From the UHGV virus genome UHGV-0342645: a stretch of 59,919 nucleotides of DNA; one strand, given 5' to 3'. Below are positions 3,748 to 59,876 of this stretch, one piece after another; position 1 is the stretch's first letter; each line of letters begins with the position of its first letter. The notes below the pieces were generated by a model. It saw nothing but the letters and a program-made list of their open reading frames with translations. It did no database searches and had not been told where the DNA came from. The position numbers were made by a program, and so were the translations under genes. This DNA comes from a virus.

Positions 3748-4053
3748 CTATTTAGGCTGAATATAATTGCTTGATCCTACAAAATCAAGCGAAACATTTT
3801 CAGCTTCATAGCGTATGATTTCCTTAACCCTTAGCTTACATTCGGTCAGAGCAGTTTCTGTATCCTGTAAACGTCGGATAATATCTCTTGTGTAAACCAA
3901 AGGAATTTTCTCAACTTCCCGACATTCCACCAGTAGATGCGCGGGTAGTCTTACCTTCACTATCTGTGGAGCTGGGGGAGGTTGAGTCTGCGTCGAGCAA
4001 CCTGCGCAAATCATCAGGAATACGCTCGTTAAGATAAGCTTTGACGTCAGCAT
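3748..4053 (-). CDS. o-spanin (Rz1-like outer-membrane lipoprotein), embedded in a different frame within the i-spanin gene
   Basis: Internal start MLTSKLILTSVFLMICAGC gives a signal peptide plus lipobox (ICAG|C); Pro-rich after the Cys; nested in the Rz-like ORF as in lambda Rz/Rz1. Confidence 0.5.
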   Translation of the reverse strand: MLTSKLILTSVFLMICAGCSTQTQPPPAPQIVKVRLPAHLLVECREVEKIPLVYTRDIIRRLQDTETALTECKLRVKEIIRYEAENVSLDFVGSSNYIQPK

Positions 4054-4387
4054 TGCTTTTCTCCAGTGTCTGCAACTTGTCCTGAAGCAACTTGTGGTTA
4101 TGTTGTTCATCTTGAATTGCAGAAGTTAGTTTCTTGAAAGAGTCCGTGTCCTTCTCCCTTTGTGCAGCAAGAAATACAACAGCCTCGCCCAGCTTTGCAT
4201 TGTCTTTCTCCACAACGGTTAAACGTTCTTCAGCCAAACTTAAATTTGATTTGTTAAGCTCGTTCTGTGACCACAGGTAGGCAGCCACCCCGCATAAAAA
4301 CACCACCGCGCCAATCATCAGGTACTCGATAAATAGACGCGGTTTAGCTTTTATAAAACTGAAGAAGTTATTTAGAATCATTTTCAT
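3911..4387 (-). CDS. i-spanin (Rz-like): N-terminal TM plus coiled-coil
   Basis: 158 aa; N-terminal hydrophobic segment (LMIGAVVFLCGVAAYLW) then charged coiled-coil-like sequence; follows the holin. Confidence 0.5.
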   Translation of the reverse strand: MKMILNNFFSFIKAKPRLFIEYLMIGAVVFLCGVAAYLWSQNELNKSNLSLAEERLTVVEKDNAKLGEAVVFLAAQREKDTDSFKKLTSAIQDEQHNHKLLQDKLQTLEKSNADVKAYLNERIPDDLRRLLDADSTSPSSTDSEGKTTRASTGGMSGS

Positions 4388-4712: not shown

Positions 4713-4748
4713 GTTCCCTCCAATAAAAAGGGGCTGACGCCCCATCAG

Positions 4749-5186
4749 TTAAATTACCATTGCAATAGCGCGGTCGATCACGTCATCAGTATAAGGCATC
4801 ATGCCATTTTCATGACGAATGATTGCTTTCACCAAACCTGACATTATCGTCTTGTCGAAGACATTAATTGGATCGTTGGGTTGAACACCAATTGCTTTGG
4901 CAACAGAACGAATATACGCTTCCGTATCGTTTTCATTAGGCGGAGCCCAGCGAGCGATAATTTCACGTACAGTGTCGATGTTTCTCTTACCCACATTGGG
5001 CAAGCCTTCACGTTTGGTGTAGTTTGTCAGGACTTTCGCCAGAGCGCGGATGCCGTAGATCGGTTGCGTAAATTGCGCAAAAGATTTGTCGGTCCGCTTA
5101 TCAACAGGGACCAATCCCTGCCAATTATCACCCCAGCGAATATTACCTGGATTGTTATTACGAATACCACGAGGTTGAAGCGCCAT
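4749..5186 (-). CDS. putative endolysin / peptidoglycan hydrolase (by position; fold not recognised)
   Basis: Start refined to MALQPRGIRNNNPGNIRW, with GGAGGA RBS 7 nt upstream; the upstream part of the six-frame ORF lacks an RBS. Sits at the head of the holin-spanin cassette. Confidence 0.4.
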   Translation of the reverse strand: MALQPRGIRNNNPGNIRWGDNWQGLVPVDKRTDKSFAQFTQPIYGIRALAKVLTNYTKREGLPNVGKRNIDTVREIIARWAPPNENDTEAYIRSVAKAIGVQPNDPINVFDKTIMSGLVKAIIRHENGMMPYTDDVIDRAIAMVI

Positions 5187-5268: not shown

Positions 5269-5529
5269 TTACCCGTCAAACCACTCGCCAATGTACCAGC
5301 TAACAAGACCTTTTCCACCTTTATCGACCCCGTAGCTGGAGTAAAAAGTGAAGTTATCGGGTTCGTGTTGCAGGATAACCATAAAGTCATGCTGAGTGTT
5401 GTCAATAATTGCAATAGCGATTTCCTCGTTATCTGTGATAAAGATTTCGCCACCAATTACAACATGCGTCCCGTGGTCAACTACCTTACTATGATAAGCA
5501 GGTGGGATCAGGTGACTGAATGTAGTCAT
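5269..5529 (-). CDS. hypothetical protein
   Basis: 86 aa ORF in the minus-strand operon, tightly packed with neighbours. Confidence 0.4.
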   Translation of the reverse strand: MTTFSHLIPPAYHSKVVDHGTHVVIGGEIFITDNEEIAIAIIDNTQHDFMVILQHEPDNFTFYSSYGVDKGGKGLVSWYIGEWFDG

Positions 5530-5994
5530 TTAAAAACCCTCAAATGATATTGTATCAACTCCCAGGAATGCGCATGTGGTGTGTTTAATTGCTAACTCAA
5601 TAGCTTCGCTCGCACTTGCACCAGCAGCTAACGCGCCAGCAGCAAACACACAACCGCTACCCTCAGATCCCCATCCATCCAGCATGGGTTTGCTCAAAGT
5701 ACCATCATTATAAATAAAATGGCAAGTACCTTCCGGAGTAACCGCAAGACCGCAAGTTTGCCCGTAATCATCATCTTTGCTGTAAAGTTTAATATCAGGG
5801 AACTTAACAGGTTCCGCGCTATTAAAATAACGCAACACCTGATCGGTAAATGCTGTAAGGCCGCACAATCCCAGTAAAAACCGTCCACGATGTCCATTTA
5901 CGCTATGAACTTTCTTATAAGCAGTCACAGCTTCCCCGCGCATAACTCCACGGTCCGCAGCTAATACTTTTCCATCAAACGCAATTGTGGTCAT
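5530..5994 (-). CDS. HslV / proteasome-beta-like Ntn-hydrolase peptidase
   Basis: N-terminus MTTIAFDGKVLAADRG matches the Thr1 nucleophile motif of HslV and 20S beta subunits (TTI..DG.VL.AD.R); 154 aa. Confidence 0.55.
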   Translation of the reverse strand: MTTIAFDGKVLAADRGVMRGEAVTAYKKVHSVNGHRGRFLLGLCGLTAFTDQVLRYFNSAEPVKFPDIKLYSKDDDYGQTCGLAVTPEGTCHFIYNDGTLSKPMLDGWGSEGSGCVFAAGALAAGASASEAIELAIKHTTCAFLGVDTISFEGF

Positions 5995-6176
5995 TTAATT
6001 TTCCTTTGGTCTTGGATAATAACAATGCATAAAACAAATAGAATAAGACAGATACAAAGCCCTGTACTTGCAAAGATTCGGATAACCGTGGAAGGTTGTT
6101 CGACTACTGTATAGGTATAAAGCCCAGCGAACATTAACGTCGCAAATAAAAACAATCCGGCGTATAGTTTGGTCAT
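5991..6176 (-). CDS. small membrane protein
   Basis: 61 aa, two hydrophobic segments; start overlaps the upstream gene stop. Confidence 0.4.
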   Translation of the reverse strand: MTKLYAGLFLFATLMFAGLYTYTVVEQPSTVIRIFASTGLCICLILFVLCIVIIQDQRKIK

Positions 6177-6238
6177 TGTGTACCCCTCTTATTCGATGGG
6201 TACACAATACAATGAAGGGTTATGTGATAGCAAGGTTT

Positions 6239-6661
6239 TTAATTAAGCACAATCTCAACGTCTTTAACCCAAGTATGAATGATAAATGCTCCTGGCTGTT
6301 CAGGATCTTGATCCGGGCCAACGTAGAACTTTTTACCTTCCCAACCTTTAATTGGGTCATGTACAATAAACTTGTGATTAGTTGTATCGATCACAACCTG
6401 ATGCAGTGCTCCAGGAACATTGAGACTTGGGACAGTGCACAAAAACAAACCACCCATGTATATAGTCTCACGCCCACCGCCTACAGAACAGATGTGGTCA
6501 ACATTGTTTTGTACTAAATATTCGGAAATTGTTATTTCCCAGTTGTTGTAATATCGATCATGAAATTCCGCAATTACTTCTTCTACAGGTCTATTAAGGA
6601 TCATTGCTAGACACGCAGAAACGCATGTATTTAAAGAAGGTTGCTTGACGTGTTTAATCAT
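6239..6661 (-). CDS. C39-like (papain-fold) cysteine peptidase domain protein
   Basis: N-terminal QPSLNTCVSACLAMIL matches the Q-x4-C-x-x-AC-L-x-MI signature of peptidase C39 (bacteriocin-processing) domains; 140 aa stand-alone domain. Confidence 0.55.
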   Translation of the reverse strand: MIKHVKQPSLNTCVSACLAMILNRPVEEVIAEFHDRYYNNWEITISEYLVQNNVDHICSVGGGRETIYMGGLFLCTVPSLNVPGALHQVVIDTTNHKFIVHDPIKGWEGKKFYVGPDQDPEQPGAFIIHTWVKDVEIVLN

Positions 6662-6662
6662 T

Positions 6663-7133
6663 TTACGCCTCGTATATGACTTCTGGCTCGTTATTATAAG
6701 GACGCAGCAGCAAACGCGCTACCAGCGACGTACGCTTGCTCAACCCTTGCGGATGCACAAACCCAACAAACTGGTAGTGACAACCGCGCAGGTGGTGCAA
6801 ACTCTTAGCACAATGACACGCTTCCAAACGAAGTGTCTCGCCCGACTGCCATTTAACCACAATAGTAGAGCCCGCGATCATGTTAATTTCTACGTCACCA
6901 ATATCTATTTGAAGACGTAAAAGATCTTCTACAACATTACGGACATAGACAAGGATCTGTGATGTGGGCATAACAATAAGCCCGTTCCAGTCTTTCCCGC
7001 GCCCCAAGCCGCAACGACGTGCGAATCTTGATATTAACTGAGTCTCTGTAACCTGTTTTACTTCAAACGACTTCTTCAGTTGGCAGTCTTTGGATTCGTC
7101 CATTGCATCAACAATAGTTTTAACGTCAGCCAT
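6663..7133 (-). CDS. hypothetical protein
   Basis: 156 aa ORF between the C39-like and SLOG-like genes. Confidence 0.45.
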   Translation of the reverse strand: MADVKTIVDAMDESKDCQLKKSFEVKQVTETQLISRFARRCGLGRGKDWNGLIVMPTSQILVYVRNVVEDLLRLQIDIGDVEINMIAGSTIVVKWQSGETLRLEACHCAKSLHHLRGCHYQFVGFVHPQGLSKRTSLVARLLLRPYNNEPEVIYEA

Positions 7134-7136
7134 TAT

Positions 7137-7529
7137 TTACTCCGCTAATGTGTAAGGAATACCGGATGCTTTAATCTGTCTGTACATGTCCATAGTACCA
7201 GCTCCGCCCGGAAACACAATAGCGTGATCTGGTTTGGGATCAGTATCCAGCATTAATTGATTGCGGTAAGCGCCAGCTTGTGCATTATAAGCACCTCTGG
7301 CGTTATACCGTATCTTAGTATTCGGTAAGGAAAGATTGTCCCACGGCGCAGGAAACGCCTCCGTCTTAATACCGTTCCGCTCCGCCCAATGTGCGCAAAT
7401 GCGGTCAACACCGTCAGCGTCACCGTGGCGAAGTGTGGTTATCCTTCTTTGCATATGCAGCTTATCCAATTGAGCATAGATATACTCCACATTCTTAAAA
7501 TTACGACCTCCGGTAACAACTAATAGCAT
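7137..7529 (-). CDS. SLOG/DUF2493-like Rossmann-fold protein (YspA/DprA-like nucleotide-binding fold)
   Basis: MLLVVTGGR...HGDADGVD...FPGGAGT pattern typical of SLOG-superfamily proteins; 130 aa. Confidence 0.4.
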   Translation of the reverse strand: MLLVVTGGRNFKNVEYIYAQLDKLHMQRRITTLRHGDADGVDRICAHWAERNGIKTEAFPAPWDNLSLPNTKIRYNARGAYNAQAGAYRNQLMLDTDPKPDHAIVFPGGAGTMDMYRQIKASGIPYTLAE

Positions 7530-39431: not shown

Positions 39432-39635
39432 TTAGAATATACGAAAGAAAGAACCGTATGGGTATACGCCAAAAGTATTGAAAACAGGCGGTGCAAAAGC
39501 ATTCACAAACACAGGAGTTGGCGCTACTGGTTGAAAAGTTTTGCAATTACACGCCGCTTGAGCCAATTGTCCCTGAAGTATACCTGCTTGTGTTGCAGGA
39601 CTGCCTAGACAGCAACGGTTAGTATTACCACACAT
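39432..39635 (-). CDS. Cys-rich 67-aa small protein (MCGNTNRCCLGSPATQAG...CNC...)
   Basis: Strong RBS AAGGAGG 7 nt upstream of the ATG; last gene of the minus late block, abutting the convergent terminator region. Confidence 0.4.
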   Translation of the reverse strand: MCGNTNRCCLGSPATQAGILQGQLAQAACNCKTFQPVAPTPVFVNAFAPPVFNTFGVYPYGSFFRIF

Positions 39636-39646
39636 AGTAGACCTCC

Positions 39647-39931
39647 TTAAAGGTCGCTTTCGTTATCCTGCTTGGAACTGGGCTTTTCAGATTCAATCAT
39701 TCCAAGTACCGCAATAACTTTAACAGCAATACGCTGAGCCAGACTGATTTGCTGCTGGGTTAATTTTCCGGTCGACACCACAGTCATTAACCCGCTCAAG
39801 TTTCCAAGAGACTTGAAATCGCTGAATGCTGATTTCATAATACTAAGTTGATCATGACCTTCATCAGCTATAACATGAGCACGAATAGAAAGTCCTTCAA
39901 CAACTTTATCAATACCTTCATTCTTCGTCAT
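39647..39931 (-). CDS. hypothetical protein
   Basis: 94 aa. Confidence 0.45.
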   Translation of the reverse strand: MTKNEGIDKVVEGLSIRAHVIADEGHDQLSIMKSAFSDFKSLGNLSGLMTVVSTGKLTQQQISLAQRIAVKVIAVLGMIESEKPSSKQDNESDL

Positions 39932-40448
39932 TTGGTTTTACCTTCTGCTCCGGTTTCTGAGGGACCGTTTGAGCGGTCTTTGGCTGCAACACTTCCTGAT
40001 CAATCATTGGTGGCCACGGACTAATATGTTCCCGGGCTTCTACAGGTTGCTCCGGTTGCACGCCAAGAAACTTATTAATAAAATCACCTGCAAAGTCTGT
40101 ACCATCGCTGACATAAACGTGCATACGATCAAGATCAGACTGACTAATGGAGTTTGGAGCGATCGTGATTTTAAACTGGTGGAAGCCGACATACATCACA
40201 TTCACGGGTCGTTCGATAGTGCCCGGCGTAGGCGGTATCACTCCCATAATCCAACAGTAATGAACCCTTCCATCACCCATAGGTTCACAGCCAGCATTAA
40301 GCCAGCTAACCTTCTGGTGTGGGAACATGGTAGTTGAATCGGTAGCGTCCCGACGTAACGTCCAATCAACACCGCCCATGTTGATGGAGTTTTTCGGTTT
40401 CATCCCGTTGAACTGGGTTACGCCCATTCCTGCGTTTACGTTTTGCAT
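39918..40448 (-). CDS. hypothetical protein
   Basis: 176 aa. Confidence 0.45.
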   Translation of the reverse strand: MQNVNAGMGVTQFNGMKPKNSINMGGVDWTLRRDATDSTTMFPHQKVSWLNAGCEPMGDGRVHYCWIMGVIPPTPGTIERPVNVMYVGFHQFKITIAPNSISQSDLDRMHVYVSDGTDFAGDFINKFLGVQPEQPVEAREHISPWPPMIDQEVLQPKTAQTVPQKPEQKVKPNDEE

Positions 40449-40463
40449 GTCGGCTTCCTATTA

Positions 40464-40832
40464 TTACATATCTTTCATTTTTTGAAGAGCGCAAGTACAA
40501 GCTGCGGCAAGATCAGTCAACTCTTTCATGATCCCTGCGCGGTCGCCTTCTTTCTTACACTCCATTAATTCGCGGTATTCCATTTCAACAATGGACATCA
40601 TACCGCCGGGCTTGTCGTGGTACGCCGCCCACGTATGCGGAGGTTCTTCCATCCGGTCAAGAACATTTGACATAGCTGCCATATGTTCATGATCTCGAGC
40701 ATAAGAGTGAGCATGTTTATATTCCTCTTTCTCATGTTCATGGTGGTGCTCACCTACGCTAATTCGAGGTAAAGCAACCTTAGGCAATTTGACCCGTGGC
40801 ATTCCCATCGTTGCAATTTTAATGTGGCTCAT
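40464..40832 (-). CDS. His-rich small protein, possibly a MazG-like NTP pyrophosphohydrolase (weak)
   Basis: HHHEHEKEEYKHAH stretch; acidic helix EMEYRELMECKKEGD reminiscent of MazG EExxE motifs. Confidence 0.3.
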   Translation of the reverse strand: MSHIKIATMGMPRVKLPKVALPRISVGEHHHEHEKEEYKHAHSYARDHEHMAAMSNVLDRMEEPPHTWAAYHDKPGGMMSIVEMEYRELMECKKEGDRAGIMKELTDLAAACTCALQKMKDM

Positions 40833-40903
40833 GATAGTACCTCTGTTAAAAGCGCCCCAAGCGGAGGAGCGAAAGGCGCTTTAGTTTAACCACACTTCAA
40901 CGA

Positions 40904-41611
40904 TTAGCAGCAGCCAGTCGGAGGAGTCGGAGGGGTTGGCAGCTTAAAATTGACCAGATCATAAACCTGATCAATTTCGCAGCGAAGCTTAGCGGTCTGT
41001 GCCAGCTGGGAGTTCTGGAAGCGCGATTCCTGCAACTGAGACTTCAGGTCGCAGATAAGAACTGCTTGCGCCTGTGCGTGCTGGTCACGGATCAGCGCAC
41101 GGGTAGCTTCAGCTTGACGCTCGATGTTCAGGTTGGTTTCGCAGCAACACTTCTGAGCTTCTAACTGTGCTTGGAAAGAACGGGTGATGTTAGCCGCTTC
41201 GTTGCTACACAGAGCCGCGAGCACTTGGCTGGTGCCACCCTGAATCTGAGTGTTCAGACCGGCAAAGCCCTGAACGGAAGCCAGCAGGTTCTGAGTGTTC
41301 TGCTGAGTGATGCCATTATAGGTAGAAGCAGCGGAGCGCTCAACAGTCAGGTTAGTACCGTTCTGCCCCTGAATGGTCTGAAGAATGCCGTTGTTGATAG
41401 CTTGCAGAATTGCGTTGGTGTCAACAGAAGCTTGCACTTCTACCGGACCAGCGAAGTTACCGCGACCACCCCAACCACCATTGCCACCCCAACCATTACC
41501 GATCCAGGAACCAATTAAGCCACCGATGGCGCCACCGATACCAGCCGCACCAGCTTCACCGCCGAAGCCATCGCCACCGAGATTAGTAGGTAAAAGAGTC
41601 ATGTCAGACAT
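40904..41611 (-). CDS. Gly-rich / Gln-Asn-rich protein with Cys-rich C-terminus (virion or lysis-associated?)
   Basis: Start refined to MSDMTLLPTNLGG (GGAGA RBS). About 90 aa of GG/GW repeats, then a Q/N-rich predicted helical domain, ending CCC...PTPPTPPTGCC. Confidence 0.45.
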   Translation of the reverse strand: MSDMTLLPTNLGGDGFGGEAGAAGIGGAIGGLIGSWIGNGWGGNGGWGGRGNFAGPVEVQASVDTNAILQAINNGILQTIQGQNGTNLTVERSAASTYNGITQQNTQNLLASVQGFAGLNTQIQGGTSQVLAALCSNEAANITRSFQAQLEAQKCCCETNLNIERQAEATRALIRDQHAQAQAVLICDLKSQLQESRFQNSQLAQTAKLRCEIDQVYDLVNFKLPTPPTPPTGCC

Positions 41612-59075: not shown

Positions 59076-59876
59076 TTATTTCTTAGCAGGACGTACAGGC
59101 TTCAGTGGGTCTACGCCATTCTTTTCAGCTAAACGTTTAGCTAAAGATTGGTTAGTTTTCCAGAGATTCATCTGCTTAGAGATGTTCCAACCGTCGTGAC
59201 TGTATGGATCTTCACCGTGATGGCCACCCGCGCCCGGACCAGATGCACCACCACCAGCAGATCCTTCAACCCAGTGCGGACGTTTCGGAAGGATTTCGTT
59301 CAGCCAGTCCGCCGGAGTTAGGTAAGGAGTTACACCAGCCCCATCTTTCGTAACCACATTACCGTTCTCGTCGACAGTCATTTGCAACTGCGCATAAGTT
59401 ACAGCGTCTTCGATAGCAGATGGACGCAATTTAGCACCAGAAGCAGCGGCAATAACTGCATCTTTAATCTTCGCTTTAGTTTCGCGAGTGCGGTAGCCTT
59501 CAATTTCCTGCTTAACCGTGTCACGCTCGGCGATAACAGTTTGCAATTGACGCTCGAGCGGCGCAAGACGGGCTTTGACCATCTTCTCAATGTCTTCCGG
59601 ATTGCCTTTACCGTTAGCAGCAGCTTCCAGCTCAGGGATACGATCCAAATCCGCCAGGACTTCTTCAACTGGACGCCCCAGTGCGCTAATTTGTTGTTTC
59701 ACCTGACGATGATCGTTACGCTCTTTTGCTAACGCACTTTCCAGACGACGAACGCTATCAGCAGGTGCTACACCTTTGACTTTTGCAAGAACGTATTTAC
59801 CGCCCTGCTCTGCGTAAAGAGTTGCAAATTCCGCTGGGATTTCTTCCGCAGATGCGTACTCGTATTGTAATTCCAC
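59076..59876 (-). CDS. putative head scaffolding protein
   Basis: 266 aa, coiled-coil rich with a Gly-rich C-terminal segment; lies between portal (across the window boundary) and capsid. Confidence 0.45.
   Translation of the reverse strand: MELQYEYASAEEIPAEFATLYAEQGGKYVLAKVKGVAPADSVRRLESALAKERNDHRQVKQQISALGRPVEEVLADLDRIPELEAAANGKGNPEDIEKMVKARLAPLERQLQTVIAERDTVKQEIEGYRTRETKAKIKDAVIAAASGAKLRPSAIEDAVTYAQLQMTVDENGNVVTKDGAGVTPYLTPADWLNEILPKRPHWVEGSAGGGASGPGAGGHHGEDPYSHDGWNISKQMNLWKTNQSLAKRLAEKNGVDPLKPVRPAKK

What the first reader, a model, noticed from the sequence alone, without database searches (positions are those of the whole stretch)
5530..6661. Phage-encoded HslV/proteasome-beta-like Thr peptidase next to a stand-alone C39 (bacteriocin-processing-type) cysteine peptidase
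The N-terminus MTTIAFDGKVLAADRG has Thr1 immediately after the initiator Met, as in Ntn-hydrolase HslV and 20S beta subunits. Two genes downstream, a 140-aa protein has the Q-x4-C-x2-AC-L-x-MI C39 signature. A pair of peptidases in the early region of a virulent phage suggests proteolytic inactivation of a host defence or host factor, or processing of a phage pro-peptide. Candidates for the latter are the Cys-rich 67-aa and Gly-rich proteins at 39432-41611.
Basis: partly seen in the sequence, partly recalled or inferred. Interest (0 to 1): 0.55.

Follow-up and report, generated by a model that had tools for sequence, protein, structure and literature searches.

The report
Two phage peptidases: mini-HslV and C39-like
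This E. coli phage really does carry a miniature proteasome-type threonine peptidase and a small stand-alone C39-type cysteine peptidase. Databases already label both folds, nobody has shown what they cut, and the proposed pro-peptide substrates did not hold up.

Summary
The window is a Seuratvirus-like coliphage genome.

- **Pfam.** Both score below the Pfam thresholds, so they are divergent variants. Both sit in existing phage families: PHROG 1040 'peptidase HslV family' and PHROG 4049. GenBank and UniRef records already call them proteases.

- 'Early region' is unproven. The genes lie on the late-gene strand, just upstream of endolysin, holin and terminase.
- The pro-peptide idea fails. No double-glycine leaders were found, and the Gly-rich protein occurs in phages that lack the C39-like gene.
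- Elsewhere the two families occur apart. The mini-HslV clade is large (about 7,900 clusters) and is usually found beside terminase or portal genes. The C39-like clade usually sits among replication or nin-type genes, and between the topoisomerase II subunit genes in Ackermannviridae.
- Only in Queuovirinae-like phages are they a conserved, sometimes overlapping, pair, often with a SLOG gene.

Substrates remain unknown.

The parts
5530..5994 (-). Mini-HslV: a 154-aa proteasome-beta/HslV-type (MEROPS T1-like) threonine peptidase. Thr2 becomes the N-terminal nucleophile once Met is removed.
5991..6176 (-). Intervening 61-aa gene. Its sequence is largely hydrophobic, so I read it as a small membrane protein. 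Its stop overlaps the mini-HslV start (ATGA). The gene in this slot is not conserved: other Queuovirinae-like phages have a different gene here, or none.
   Evidence: ORF and sequence. PHROG 22841, unknown function. The slot holds other genes in JenP2, Kpn2-P2 and Vid5, and no gene in PSTCR4. No transmembrane prediction was run.
6239..6661 (-). Stand-alone 140-aa C39-like (clan CA, papain-fold) cysteine peptidase with Gln7 (oxyanion hole), Cys13, His87 and Asp102.
7137..7529 (-). SLOG/YAcAr-family gene that recurs next to the two peptidase genes in related phages. It may be a third member of a lineage-specific module.
   Evidence: Pfam PF10686, E 3.1e-18. PHROG 289. Contiguous with the C39-like and HslV-like genes in Providencia phage PSTCR4. 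Lies between them in locus L172, whose contig length equals that of Pantoea phage Vid5. Lies near a mini-HslV gene in L048 and near a C39-like gene in Shewanella phage S0112.
5269..5529 (-). 86-aa gene of unknown function that starts directly after the mini-HslV stop codon.
   Evidence: PHROG 23528. The gene after the HslV-like gene in Klebsiella phage vB_Kpn2-P2 gives a weak hit to the same PHROG (E 2.4e-4).
4749..5186 (-). Endolysin (context). It is the next recognisable function downstream and marks the start of the lysis and packaging block.
   Evidence: PHROG 873 endolysin, E 1.8e-63. Annotated as endolysin in Seurat, KS_W4 and others. The probable start is the internal Met (MALQPRG...), as in Seurat's 145-aa CDS.
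4730..4743 (-). Terminator-like GC hairpin followed by a T-run, directly after the endolysin stop. It may end the transcription unit that contains both peptidase genes.
   Evidence: Consensus scan. A terminator is annotated at the same place in the Seurat record. The scan as a whole was not above chance.

Best explanation
**What is shown.** The region encodes two unrelated cytoplasmic peptidases whose catalytic residues are all intact.

1. The 154-aa protein is a minimal member of the proteasome-beta/HslV superfamily.
- It has no propeptide, so removal of the initiator Met exposes Thr as the N-terminal nucleophile.
- Asp14, Lys28 and the Gly-Ser-Gly loop correspond to HslV Asp17, Lys33 and Gly-Ser-Gly.
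- It keeps helix H1 and the two C-terminal helices. It lacks the second long helix (H2) of HslV.
- No unfoldase gene lies beside it.

2. The 140-aa protein is a stand-alone C39-like papain-fold cysteine endopeptidase with a Gln-Cys-His-Asp active site. It has no ABC-transporter part.

**What is inferred.**
- The mini-HslV belongs to a very large, mostly phage-borne clade whose genes usually lie beside terminase, portal, head or adaptor genes. I therefore think it acts late, as a ring-forming threonine protease that processes or clears proteins linked to virion assembly. A plausible variant is that it acts on host proteins with help from a host unfoldase.
- The C39-like enzyme belongs to a clade that usually lies among replication or nin-type accessory genes. 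It most likely makes site-specific cuts, at small residues of the Gly-Gly type, in a cytoplasmic target protein during host takeover.
- In Queuovirinae-like phages the two genes, often with a SLOG gene, form a conserved and sometimes translationally coupled block just before the lysis and packaging genes. A shared task in this lineage is possible. Family-wide, neither gene needs the other.
For: **Fold and active site**
- HslV-like.
- C39-like.
- No propeptide: the profile starts at residue 1 in almost all of the 150 best representatives, and the proteins begin 'MT'.

**Family size**: 7,897 cluster representatives at E<=1e-10.

**Mini-HslV context**
- TerL lies within two same-strand ORFs in 16 of 41 non-redundant distant loci (6 upstream, 10 downstream). 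Portal, TerS, adaptor and major head proteins are also among the neighbours.
- Binomial P is about 9e-7 if 10% were expected by chance.
- Individual contexts.
- No unfoldase appears among the top neighbour families or among the adjacent window genes.

**C39-like context**: NinG, NinB, RusA, DnaB, replication protein O and methylases in 34 non-redundant loci. It also lies in a recombination-gene operon (GamL/RecT/YqaJ/Dam) next to the integrase of Enterobacter prophages.

**Conserved pair**
- Order C39-like then HslV-like in all 11 of the 14 loci where both ORFs were called. The genes overlap by 10-29 nt in L141, L148, L153 and L154, and by 4 nt in PSTCR4.
- These are the only two genes of the tested block with a syntenic homologue in JenP2, at 39% and 30% identity. 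Core proteins are 39-67% identical.

**Precedent for cytosolic C39 enzymes with a defined target**: Cpe1 and StbD-CT cleave GyrB and ParE (PMC12136450; bioRxiv 10.64898/2026.05.07.723447).
Against: - No activity, oligomeric state, substrate or expression timing was measured, and none could be.
- Both proteins fall below the Pfam gathering scores.
- In this phage the mini-HslV gene is separated from the head genes by the lysis cassette. A terminator-like site after the endolysin would fit an early or middle transcription unit instead.
- Gene neighbourhood near terminase can also reflect a hot spot for accessory genes. For example, an Acb2/Tad1-like gene lies two genes upstream of the mini-HslV gene in one locus.
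- My ORF calling in metagenomic loci was crude.
- C39-like contexts are heterogeneous, so one common target is not assured.
- Papain-fold and Ntn-fold enzymes can also be amidases, deamidases, acyltransferases or ligases.
Confidence: 0.5

Rival explanations
1. The two peptidases work together to process a phage-encoded pro-peptide, such as the Cys-rich 67-aa or the Gly-rich protein at 39432-41611.
For: C39 domains classically remove double-glycine leaders (PMC6363468, PMC10318531). The 235-aa protein starts MSDMTLLPTNLGG and is very Gly-rich.
Against: No ORF in the window has a credible double-glycine leader. The hits are membrane segments or enzyme nucleotide-binding loops. Homologues of the Gly-rich protein occur in 180 phage records, including about 50-kb coliphages and about 112-kb Salmonella phages; those genome sizes do not appear among the listed C39-like hits. 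The candidates lie about 33 kb away, after the tail-fibre genes. The mini-HslV needs no processing because it has no propeptide.
Confidence: 0.04
2. HslU hijack. The mini-HslV assembles with the host unfoldase HslU (or another host AAA+ unfoldase) to form a hybrid ATP-dependent protease. That protease degrades host or defence proteins.
For: Bacterial HslV needs HslU for full activity (established knowledge). No phage-encoded unfoldase lies next to mini-HslV genes in 41 loci or in the window. The catalytic residues are fully conserved.
Confidence: 0.2
3. Counter-defence. One or both peptidases cleave, or deconjugate, a host anti-phage defence component. An example would be a ubiquitin-like conjugate or a sensor of terminase, portal or capsid.
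Against: There are no PADLOC hits and no known anti-defence homologue. Both genes are retained across genera, unlike most neighbouring accessory genes. The deubiquitinase-like matches are weaker than the C39 matches.
Confidence: 0.15
4. Topoisomerase attack. The C39-like enzyme cleaves the ATPase subunits of the host type II topoisomerases (GyrB and ParE), as the C39 toxins Cpe1 and StbD-CT do. This would shut down the host chromosome.
Against: The topoisomerase linkage is limited to one phage family and the pentapeptide neighbour to one locus. Other contexts differ. Similarity to the toxins is at fold level only, and they were not among the sequence matches. AGSNF-type motifs may be a general feature of T4-type topoisomerases (my recollection, not tested). 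The window phage has no topoisomerase gene among its large ORFs and may need host gyrase.
Confidence: 0.1
5. Non-proteolytic chemistry. The two folds, together with the SLOG protein, act on small molecules or on modified nucleotides or DNA, for example as amidases or transferases linked to the 7-deazaguanine DNA modification of these phages.
Against: The Thr1-Asp-Lys plus Gly-Ser-Gly signature is specific to proteasome-type peptidases. The best structural matches are peptidases by a wide margin. Both families are widespread in phages that have no deazaguanine genes.
Confidence: 0.07

Closest known systems
Bacterial HslV (ClpQ), the peptidase of the HslUV protease (MEROPS T1B)
   Different: About 20 residues shorter. 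The second long helix is replaced by a loop with a conserved Pro66. Only about 20% identical. Below the Pfam threshold. No adjacent hslU-like gene. Phage-encoded and usually next to packaging or head genes.
BPH and Anbu, the 'orphan' bacterial proteasome homologues
C39 peptidase domains of PCAT/AMS bacteriocin exporters (PCAT1, LahT150, ComA)
   Different: Stand-alone 140-aa protein with no ABC transporter. None of the 120 listed homologues (of 233) carries any precomputed Pfam domain. No double-glycine substrate is encoded nearby. The Pfam C39 hit is sub-threshold and covers residues 3-24 only.
Cpe1 and StbD-CT, C39-type interbacterial toxins that cleave GyrB and ParE
   Different: The toxins are delivered by T6SS or CDI, carry entry or carrier domains, and have immunity proteins. 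The phage proteins are free-standing. No sequence-level similarity was detected.
Phage pseudomurein endoisopeptidase PeiR (Pei family)
   Different: PeiR acts on the cell wall. The window protein lies upstream of the lysis genes, but no signal-peptide or wall-binding-domain prediction was run on it.
ClpP-like and S49-like head-maturation proteases of tailed phages (own knowledge, not tested)
   Same: These are a precedent for a cellular self-compartmentalising protease family being recruited into phage head modules. That is the position many mini-HslV genes occupy.
   Different: Unrelated serine-protease folds. A morphogenetic role for the mini-HslV is only inferred from gene neighbourhood.

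Membership tests
Proteasome/HslV family (MEROPS T1, Pfam PF00227) | N-terminal Thr nucleophile; in HslV it follows the initiator Met directly, with no propeptide | tested here: met
   MTT... at the only possible start. Thr in 156 and Ser in 10 of 166 relatives. The profile starts at residue 1 of almost all of the 150 best representatives.
Proteasome/HslV family (MEROPS T1, Pfam PF00227) | Catalytic partners Asp17 and Lys33, plus Gly45/47 and the Gly-Ser-Gly loop | tested here: met
   D14 in 165/166, K28 in 166/166, G45 in 166/166, G112 in 166/166, S113 in 142/166, G114 in 166/166. These align to the HslV residues in the profile-PDB alignments.
Proteasome/HslV family (MEROPS T1, Pfam PF00227) | Ntn-hydrolase alpha-beta-beta-alpha sandwich fold | tested here: met
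Proteasome/HslV family (MEROPS T1, Pfam PF00227) | Score above the Pfam gathering threshold | tested here: not met
   15.4 bits against a cut-off of 22.4. 15 of 22 relatives give a hit at E<=1, the best at 4.1e-7.
Proteasome/HslV family (MEROPS T1, Pfam PF00227) | Full complement of helices (H1 and H2 on one face, H3 and H4 on the other) | tested here: not met
   The model has H1 (47-58), H3 (115-123) and H4 (128-137). Residues 59-79 are a loop. Family median length is 148 aa, against 171-198 aa for solved HslV chains.
HslUV system | Partner AAA+ unfoldase HslU encoded in the same operon | tested here: not met
   Neighbouring window genes have no such hits. No unfoldase family appears among the top neighbour families of 41 loci. 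Use of the host's HslU is not excluded.
HslUV system | Double-ring (dodecameric) assembly and ATP-dependent proteolysis | not testable with these tools
   No multimer prediction or biochemistry was available.
Peptidase C39 (Pfam PF03412, MEROPS clan CA) | Papain-like fold with Cys on the N-terminal helix and His and Asp on the beta-sheet, plus an oxyanion-hole Gln | tested here: met
Peptidase C39 (Pfam PF03412, MEROPS clan CA) | Score above the Pfam gathering threshold | tested here: not met
   14.5 bits against a cut-off of 22, covering residues 3-24 only. 14 of 21 relatives hit, the best at E 0.016.
Peptidase C39 (Pfam PF03412, MEROPS clan CA) | N-terminal domain of an ABC exporter (PCAT/AMS) with a double-glycine-leader substrate encoded nearby | tested here: not met
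   The protein is 140 aa and stand-alone. The 120 listed homologues (of 233) are 124-304 aa and carry no precomputed Pfam domain. No leader-like N-terminus exists in the window.
Peptidase C39 (Pfam PF03412, MEROPS clan CA) | Cleavage after Gly-Gly (or Gly-Ala/Ser) | not testable with these tools
   Needs biochemistry.
Cpe1/StbD-CT C39 toxins | Specific sequence relationship to the toxin clade, and delivery and immunity genes | tested here: not met
Cpe1/StbD-CT C39 toxins | Cleavage of GyrB and ParE at LHAGGKF | not testable with these tools
   There is only circumstantial gene-neighbourhood evidence.
PHROG 1040 'peptidase HslV family' and PHROG 4049 | Significant full-length match to the family profile | tested here: met
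   E 1.3e-31 over residues 1-152, and E 4e-55 over residues 1-139.

The most novel reading that the evidence does not exclude
The mini-HslV clade is a proteasome-type, self-compartmentalising threonine protease that tailed phages have recruited for virion morphogenesis, for example to clear scaffold or trim head or portal proteins. It would be a further class of phage assembly protease, beside the known herpesvirus-fold and ClpP/S49-like ones. In this Seuratvirus, whose head module runs portal, scaffold, major head protein with no recognised protease, it would supply the missing proteolytic step. A second, less likely novel reading is that the C39-like enzyme cleaves host GyrB and ParE.
Probability: 0.18. 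Interest if true: 0.7.

Novelty: new variant of a known kind. Interest (0 to 1): 0.45.

Why it matters
Proteasome-type peptidases are normally seen as cellular machines that need an unfoldase partner. This one belongs to a shortened, propeptide-less clade carried by phages. The clade has thousands of sequence clusters and a strong positional link to terminase and portal genes, and I found no functional study of it. If it works in capsid assembly or host takeover, that would add a new enzyme class to phage biology. It would also be a minimal model for how proteasome-like rings work without dedicated activators.

The stand-alone C39-like clade is likewise widespread in phages and uncharacterised. 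Recent work shows that C39-fold toxins kill bacteria by cutting GyrB and ParE. The position of the phage homologue inside the topoisomerase II operon of Ackermannviridae therefore gives a concrete, cheap experiment.

For annotation, the result is ordinary. Both folds are already recognised in PHROGs and in several GenBank and UniRef records.

Tried and rejected
- **Single-sequence PDB searches.** phmmer searches with either protein found nothing meaningful. Profiles and structure prediction were needed.
- **NCBIfam and PADLOC.** No hits for either peptidase or for the neighbouring genes.
- **Literature.** Searches for phage HslV, 'peptidase HslV family', Seuratvirus/Queuovirinae protease, phage C39 anti-defence, proteasome/prohead protease and Nonagvirus virion proteomics found no functional study. 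The Vid5 paper does not mention these genes.
- **Pro-peptide hypothesis.** Rejected after a motif scan for double-glycine leaders and a comparison of phyletic distribution for the Gly-rich protein.
- **Obligate functional pair.** Rejected family-wide, but kept as a lineage-specific possibility.
- **General link between the C39-like gene and topoisomerase or gyrase.** A systematic Pfam survey of neighbours found topoisomerase domains in only one de-replicated lineage, and a pentapeptide protein in only one locus. It is kept only as a low-probability lead.
- **Promoter and terminator scan.** Counts were not above shuffled expectation, so transcription timing is left open.
- **'Late transcriptional activator' label.** The gene between the two peptidase genes in Klebsiella phage vB_Kpn2-P2 carries this label, but it rests on a weak PHROG hit (E 1.9e-4). 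I did not rely on it.
Full report
**What the window is.** A 2.9-kb stretch around the finding is 97% identical to Escherichia phage KS_W4 and 92-95% identical to Seurat, CAjan and about 30 other coliphages. The window is therefore a Seuratvirus-type (Queuovirinae) siphophage genome.

All genes in the region are on the minus strand. Transcription runs from a divergent intergenic zone near 10.3-10.9 kb. In order, it passes:
- about 25 small ORFs;
- a SLOG/YAcAr gene (7137-7529);
- a 156-aa ORF (6663-7133);
- the C39-like gene (6239-6661);
- a largely hydrophobic 61-aa ORF (5991-6176);
- the HslV-like gene (5530-5994);
- an 86-aa ORF (5269-5529);
- the endolysin (4749-5186), then holin, spanins, TerS, TerL and portal (125-1621);
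- across the window ends, the scaffold (59076-59876) and the major head protein.

**Checking the observation.** Both ORFs are real, and both starts are unambiguous, each with a Shine-Dalgarno sequence.

*HslV-like protein.*
- Pfam gives only a sub-threshold Proteasome hit (15.4 bits against 22.4), but PHROG 1040 'peptidase HslV family' matches at E 1.3e-31.
- A profile built from 22 relatives (A1) hits solved HslV chains at E 2.5e-9, and also BPH and 20S beta subunits.
- The AlphaFold model is confident (pLDDT 95).
- The profile-PDB alignments place D14, K28, G45 and G112-S113-G114 on HslV Asp17, Lys33, Gly45 and Gly-Ser-Gly.
- Across 166 relatives these positions are almost invariant: Thr2 in 156 (Ser in 10), Asp14 in 165, Lys28 in 166, Gly45 in 166, Gly112 in 166, Ser113 in 142, Gly114 in 166.
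- Nearly all relatives start 'MT' at profile position 1, so there is no propeptide. Methionine aminopeptidase would expose Thr (established enzymology, an inference here).
- The protein is a reduced version of the fold. Residues 59-79 form a loop where HslV has its second long helix. Median family length is 148 aa.

*C39-like protein.*
- Pfam matches Peptidase_C39 only over residues 3-24 (14.5 bits against 22). PHROG 4049 (function unknown) matches at E 4e-55.
- The model (pLDDT 93) is a papain fold.
- Gln7, Cys13, His87 and Asp102 are invariant in two alignments that span at least eight phage groups.

**How known is this?**
- RefSeq and Pharokka-style records for Seurat, CAjan, slur01 and the KS phages already say 'peptidase HslV family'. 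The 2015 CAjan record says 'putative protease'.
- Shewanella phage S0112 and a UniRef entry for a Salmonella phage call the C39-like protein a C39 peptidase.
- The CSP1C record carries 'ATP-dependent protease subunit HslV' and 'cysteine protease', each displaced by one gene.
- I found no paper that studies either protein.

**The mini-HslV family and where it lives.**
- A full HMMER scan of 1.84 billion cluster representatives found 7,897 proteins at E<=1e-10. The best 150 are nearly all 140-170 aa.
- Distant members whose contigs I could read lie in virion modules:
  - before TerS, TerL and portal;
  - between TerL and portal;
  - after the major head protein and adaptors;
  - after tail-fibre genes.
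- In 41 non-redundant IMG/VR loci, 16 have a large terminase (PHROG 2) within two same-strand ORFs, 6 upstream and 10 downstream. Portals, small terminases, adaptors, Neck1 and major head proteins are also frequent neighbours.
- If 10% were expected by chance, the probability is about 9e-7. The ORF calls were crude, and the null value is my own estimate.
- No unfoldase is among the common neighbours.
- The window fits this pattern: HslV-like, 86 aa, endolysin, holin, spanins, TerS, TerL, portal.

**The C39-like family and where it lives.**
- tblastn finds it in 197 phage records. These include Queuovirinae, Ackermannviridae, Vequintavirinae, Pseudomonas Samunavirus phages and the Vibrio phage phiVC8/VP2 group (taxonomy).
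- The 120 listed homologues (of 233) are all 124-304 aa and carry no precomputed Pfam domain, so none looks like a toxin or transporter fusion.
- Neighbours in 34 non-redundant viral loci are NinG, NinB, RusA, DnaB, replication protein O, DNA methylases and YAcAr. I read these as replication/recombination or nin-type accessory regions.
- In Enterobacter prophages the gene lies in a recombination-gene operon (GamL, RecT, YqaJ, Dam), a few genes before the integrase.
- In a Methylophaga Mu-like prophage it lies between the Mu portal and MuF genes.
- In Ackermannviridae of both subfamilies it lies between the topoisomerase II large and medium subunit genes.
  - In Ag3 and CRW-SP2 its reading frame overlaps at least one of them; in Marshall it overlaps the downstream gene.
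  - That phage topoisomerase has LYAGSNF where GyrB and ParE have LHAGGKF.
  - LHAGGKF is the site cut by the C39 toxins Cpe1 and StbD-CT (PMC12136450; bioRxiv 10.64898/2026.05.07.723447).
- In L002 the next gene is a pentapeptide-repeat protein. These are leads, not a general pattern.

**Are the two a pair?**
- Family-wide they are not. None of 78 distant mini-HslV loci has a C39-like ORF within 6 kb, and the distant C39-like loci lack a mini-HslV.
- Within one lineage they are.
  - 14 of 80 C39-like viral loci also carry the HslV-like gene. Those on near-complete contigs are about 57-65 kb, and one contig has the same length as the genome of Pantoea phage Vid5 (61,437 bp).
  - In all 11 loci where both ORFs were called, the order is C39-like then HslV-like on one strand.
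  - The ORFs overlap by 10-29 nt in L141, L148, L153 and L154, and by 4 nt in Providencia phage PSTCR4.
- Of the 17 genes I tested from the block between 125 and 9302, only the two peptidases have a homologue at the syntenic position in Nonagvirus JenP2. They are 39% and 30% identical, against 39-67% for core proteins.
- A SLOG gene accompanies them in changing order:
  - SLOG, C39-like, HslV-like in PSTCR4;
  - C39-like, SLOG, HslV-like in the Vid5-length locus;
  - SLOG, x, C39-like, x, HslV-like in the window.
- This argues for some shared role in this lineage. The alternative is that the two genes simply meet at the junction between a nin-type accessory region and the late genes.

- The pro-peptide candidates are not supported.
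  - A scan of all window ORFs for double-glycine leaders returned only membrane segments and enzyme loops.
  - The Gly-rich protein's homologues occur in about 50-kb coliphages and about 112-kb Salmonella phages. Those genome sizes do not appear among the listed C39-like hits.
- 'Early region' is undecided. A terminator-like hairpin right after the endolysin, annotated in Seurat, would make the block a separate unit ending with the endolysin. However, the family-level neighbourhood of the mini-HslV is late.
- Interaction with host HslU could not be tested. The loss of helix H2 and a two-residue deletion in the Asp-Lys hairpin make a canonical HslU interface uncertain. That reading of the interface rests on my recollection of HslVU structures.

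**Verdict.**
- Biochemically these are very likely active peptidases: a threonine N-terminal nucleophile enzyme and a Cys-His-Asp enzyme.
- My best reading is that the mini-HslV is a late-acting, ring-type protease tied to the assembly module.
- I read the C39-like enzyme as a site-specific cytoplasmic endopeptidase used during takeover.
- In Queuovirinae-like phages the two are kept together with a SLOG gene for a reason not yet known.
- Both are divergent variants of known peptidase kinds that are already flagged in databases, and their substrates are unknown.
- Interest is moderate. It rests mainly on the size and consistent genomic placement of the mini-HslV clade, and on the testable topoisomerase lead for the C39-like clade.

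Noticed in passing
L098 3480-3929 (Salmonella phage Marshall); L104 2989-3435 (Shigella phage Ag3); L105 2989-3435 (Salmonella phage CRW-SP2): The C39-like homologue lies between the phage topoisomerase II large and medium subunit genes in both Ackermannviridae subfamilies. The phage topoisomerase has LYAGSNF where GyrB and ParE carry LHAGGKF, the site cleaved by the C39 toxins Cpe1 and StbD-CT.
   Followed up: partly
window 7137-7529; L096 3989-4504; L172 5465-5833; L048 1733-2122; L012 795-1358: A SLOG/YAcAr (PHROG 289) gene recurs next to the C39-like and/or mini-HslV genes, in permuted order, in several unrelated or distantly related phages. This suggests a three-gene association of unknown meaning.
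   Followed up: partly
window 40904-41611 (minus strand): A 235-aa protein has an extremely Gly-rich N-terminal third (GGDGFGGEAGAAGIGGAIGG...GWGGNGGWGG), a Gln/Asn-rich middle and a Cys-rich C-terminus ending in GCC. It lies after the tail-fibre gene. Homologues occur in 180 phage records, including about 50-kb coliphages and about 112-kb Salmonella phages. Function unknown (PHROG 9288).
   Followed up: partly
L001 (Escherichia phage CSP1C, PQ202980.1), whole region: The product names in this GenBank record look shifted by one gene. 'ATP-dependent protease subunit HslV' sits on the 86-aa ORF, 'cysteine protease' on the 61-aa ORF, and 'DprA' on the 156-aa ORF.
   Followed up: no
window 4730-4743 (minus strand) and 5378-5405 (minus strand): There is a GC-rich hairpin plus T-run directly after the endolysin stop, annotated as a terminator in Seurat. 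The best sigma-70-like match of the region (TTGACA-16-TATGGT) lies inside the 86-aa gene, upstream of the endolysin. Overall site counts were not above shuffled expectation.
   Followed up: partly
window 3748-4110 and 3911-4387 (minus strand): A 120-aa ORF contains the sequence LMICAGCS, which looks to me like a lipoprotein signal (lipobox). It overlaps the 158-aa ORF downstream of the holin, which resembles an overlapping Rz/Rz1-type spanin pair.
   Followed up: no
L109 7001-7432 (Methylophaga Mu-like prophage); L026 5749-6198: In different phages a C39-like gene (L109) and a mini-HslV gene (L026) each occupy the same slot, between the portal gene and the MuF/gp7-type minor head protein gene.
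   Followed up: no
L008 2304-2648: An Acb2/Tad1-hairpin (anti-CBASS/anti-Thoeris sponge-like) gene lies two genes upstream of a mini-HslV gene, inside a podophage structural module. Counter-defence genes can therefore be embedded in the same neighbourhoods.
   Followed up: no
L002 8566-9105: A pentapeptide-repeat protein (the protein class that includes the gyrase-binding Qnr and MfpA) is encoded immediately downstream of a distant C39-like gene, between two DNA methylase genes.
   Followed up: partly
window 5530-5994, residue 66 of the protein: Pro66, in the loop that replaces HslV helix H2, is conserved in 162 of 166 family members. This hints that the shortened region has a defined structural or interface role.
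   Followed up: no
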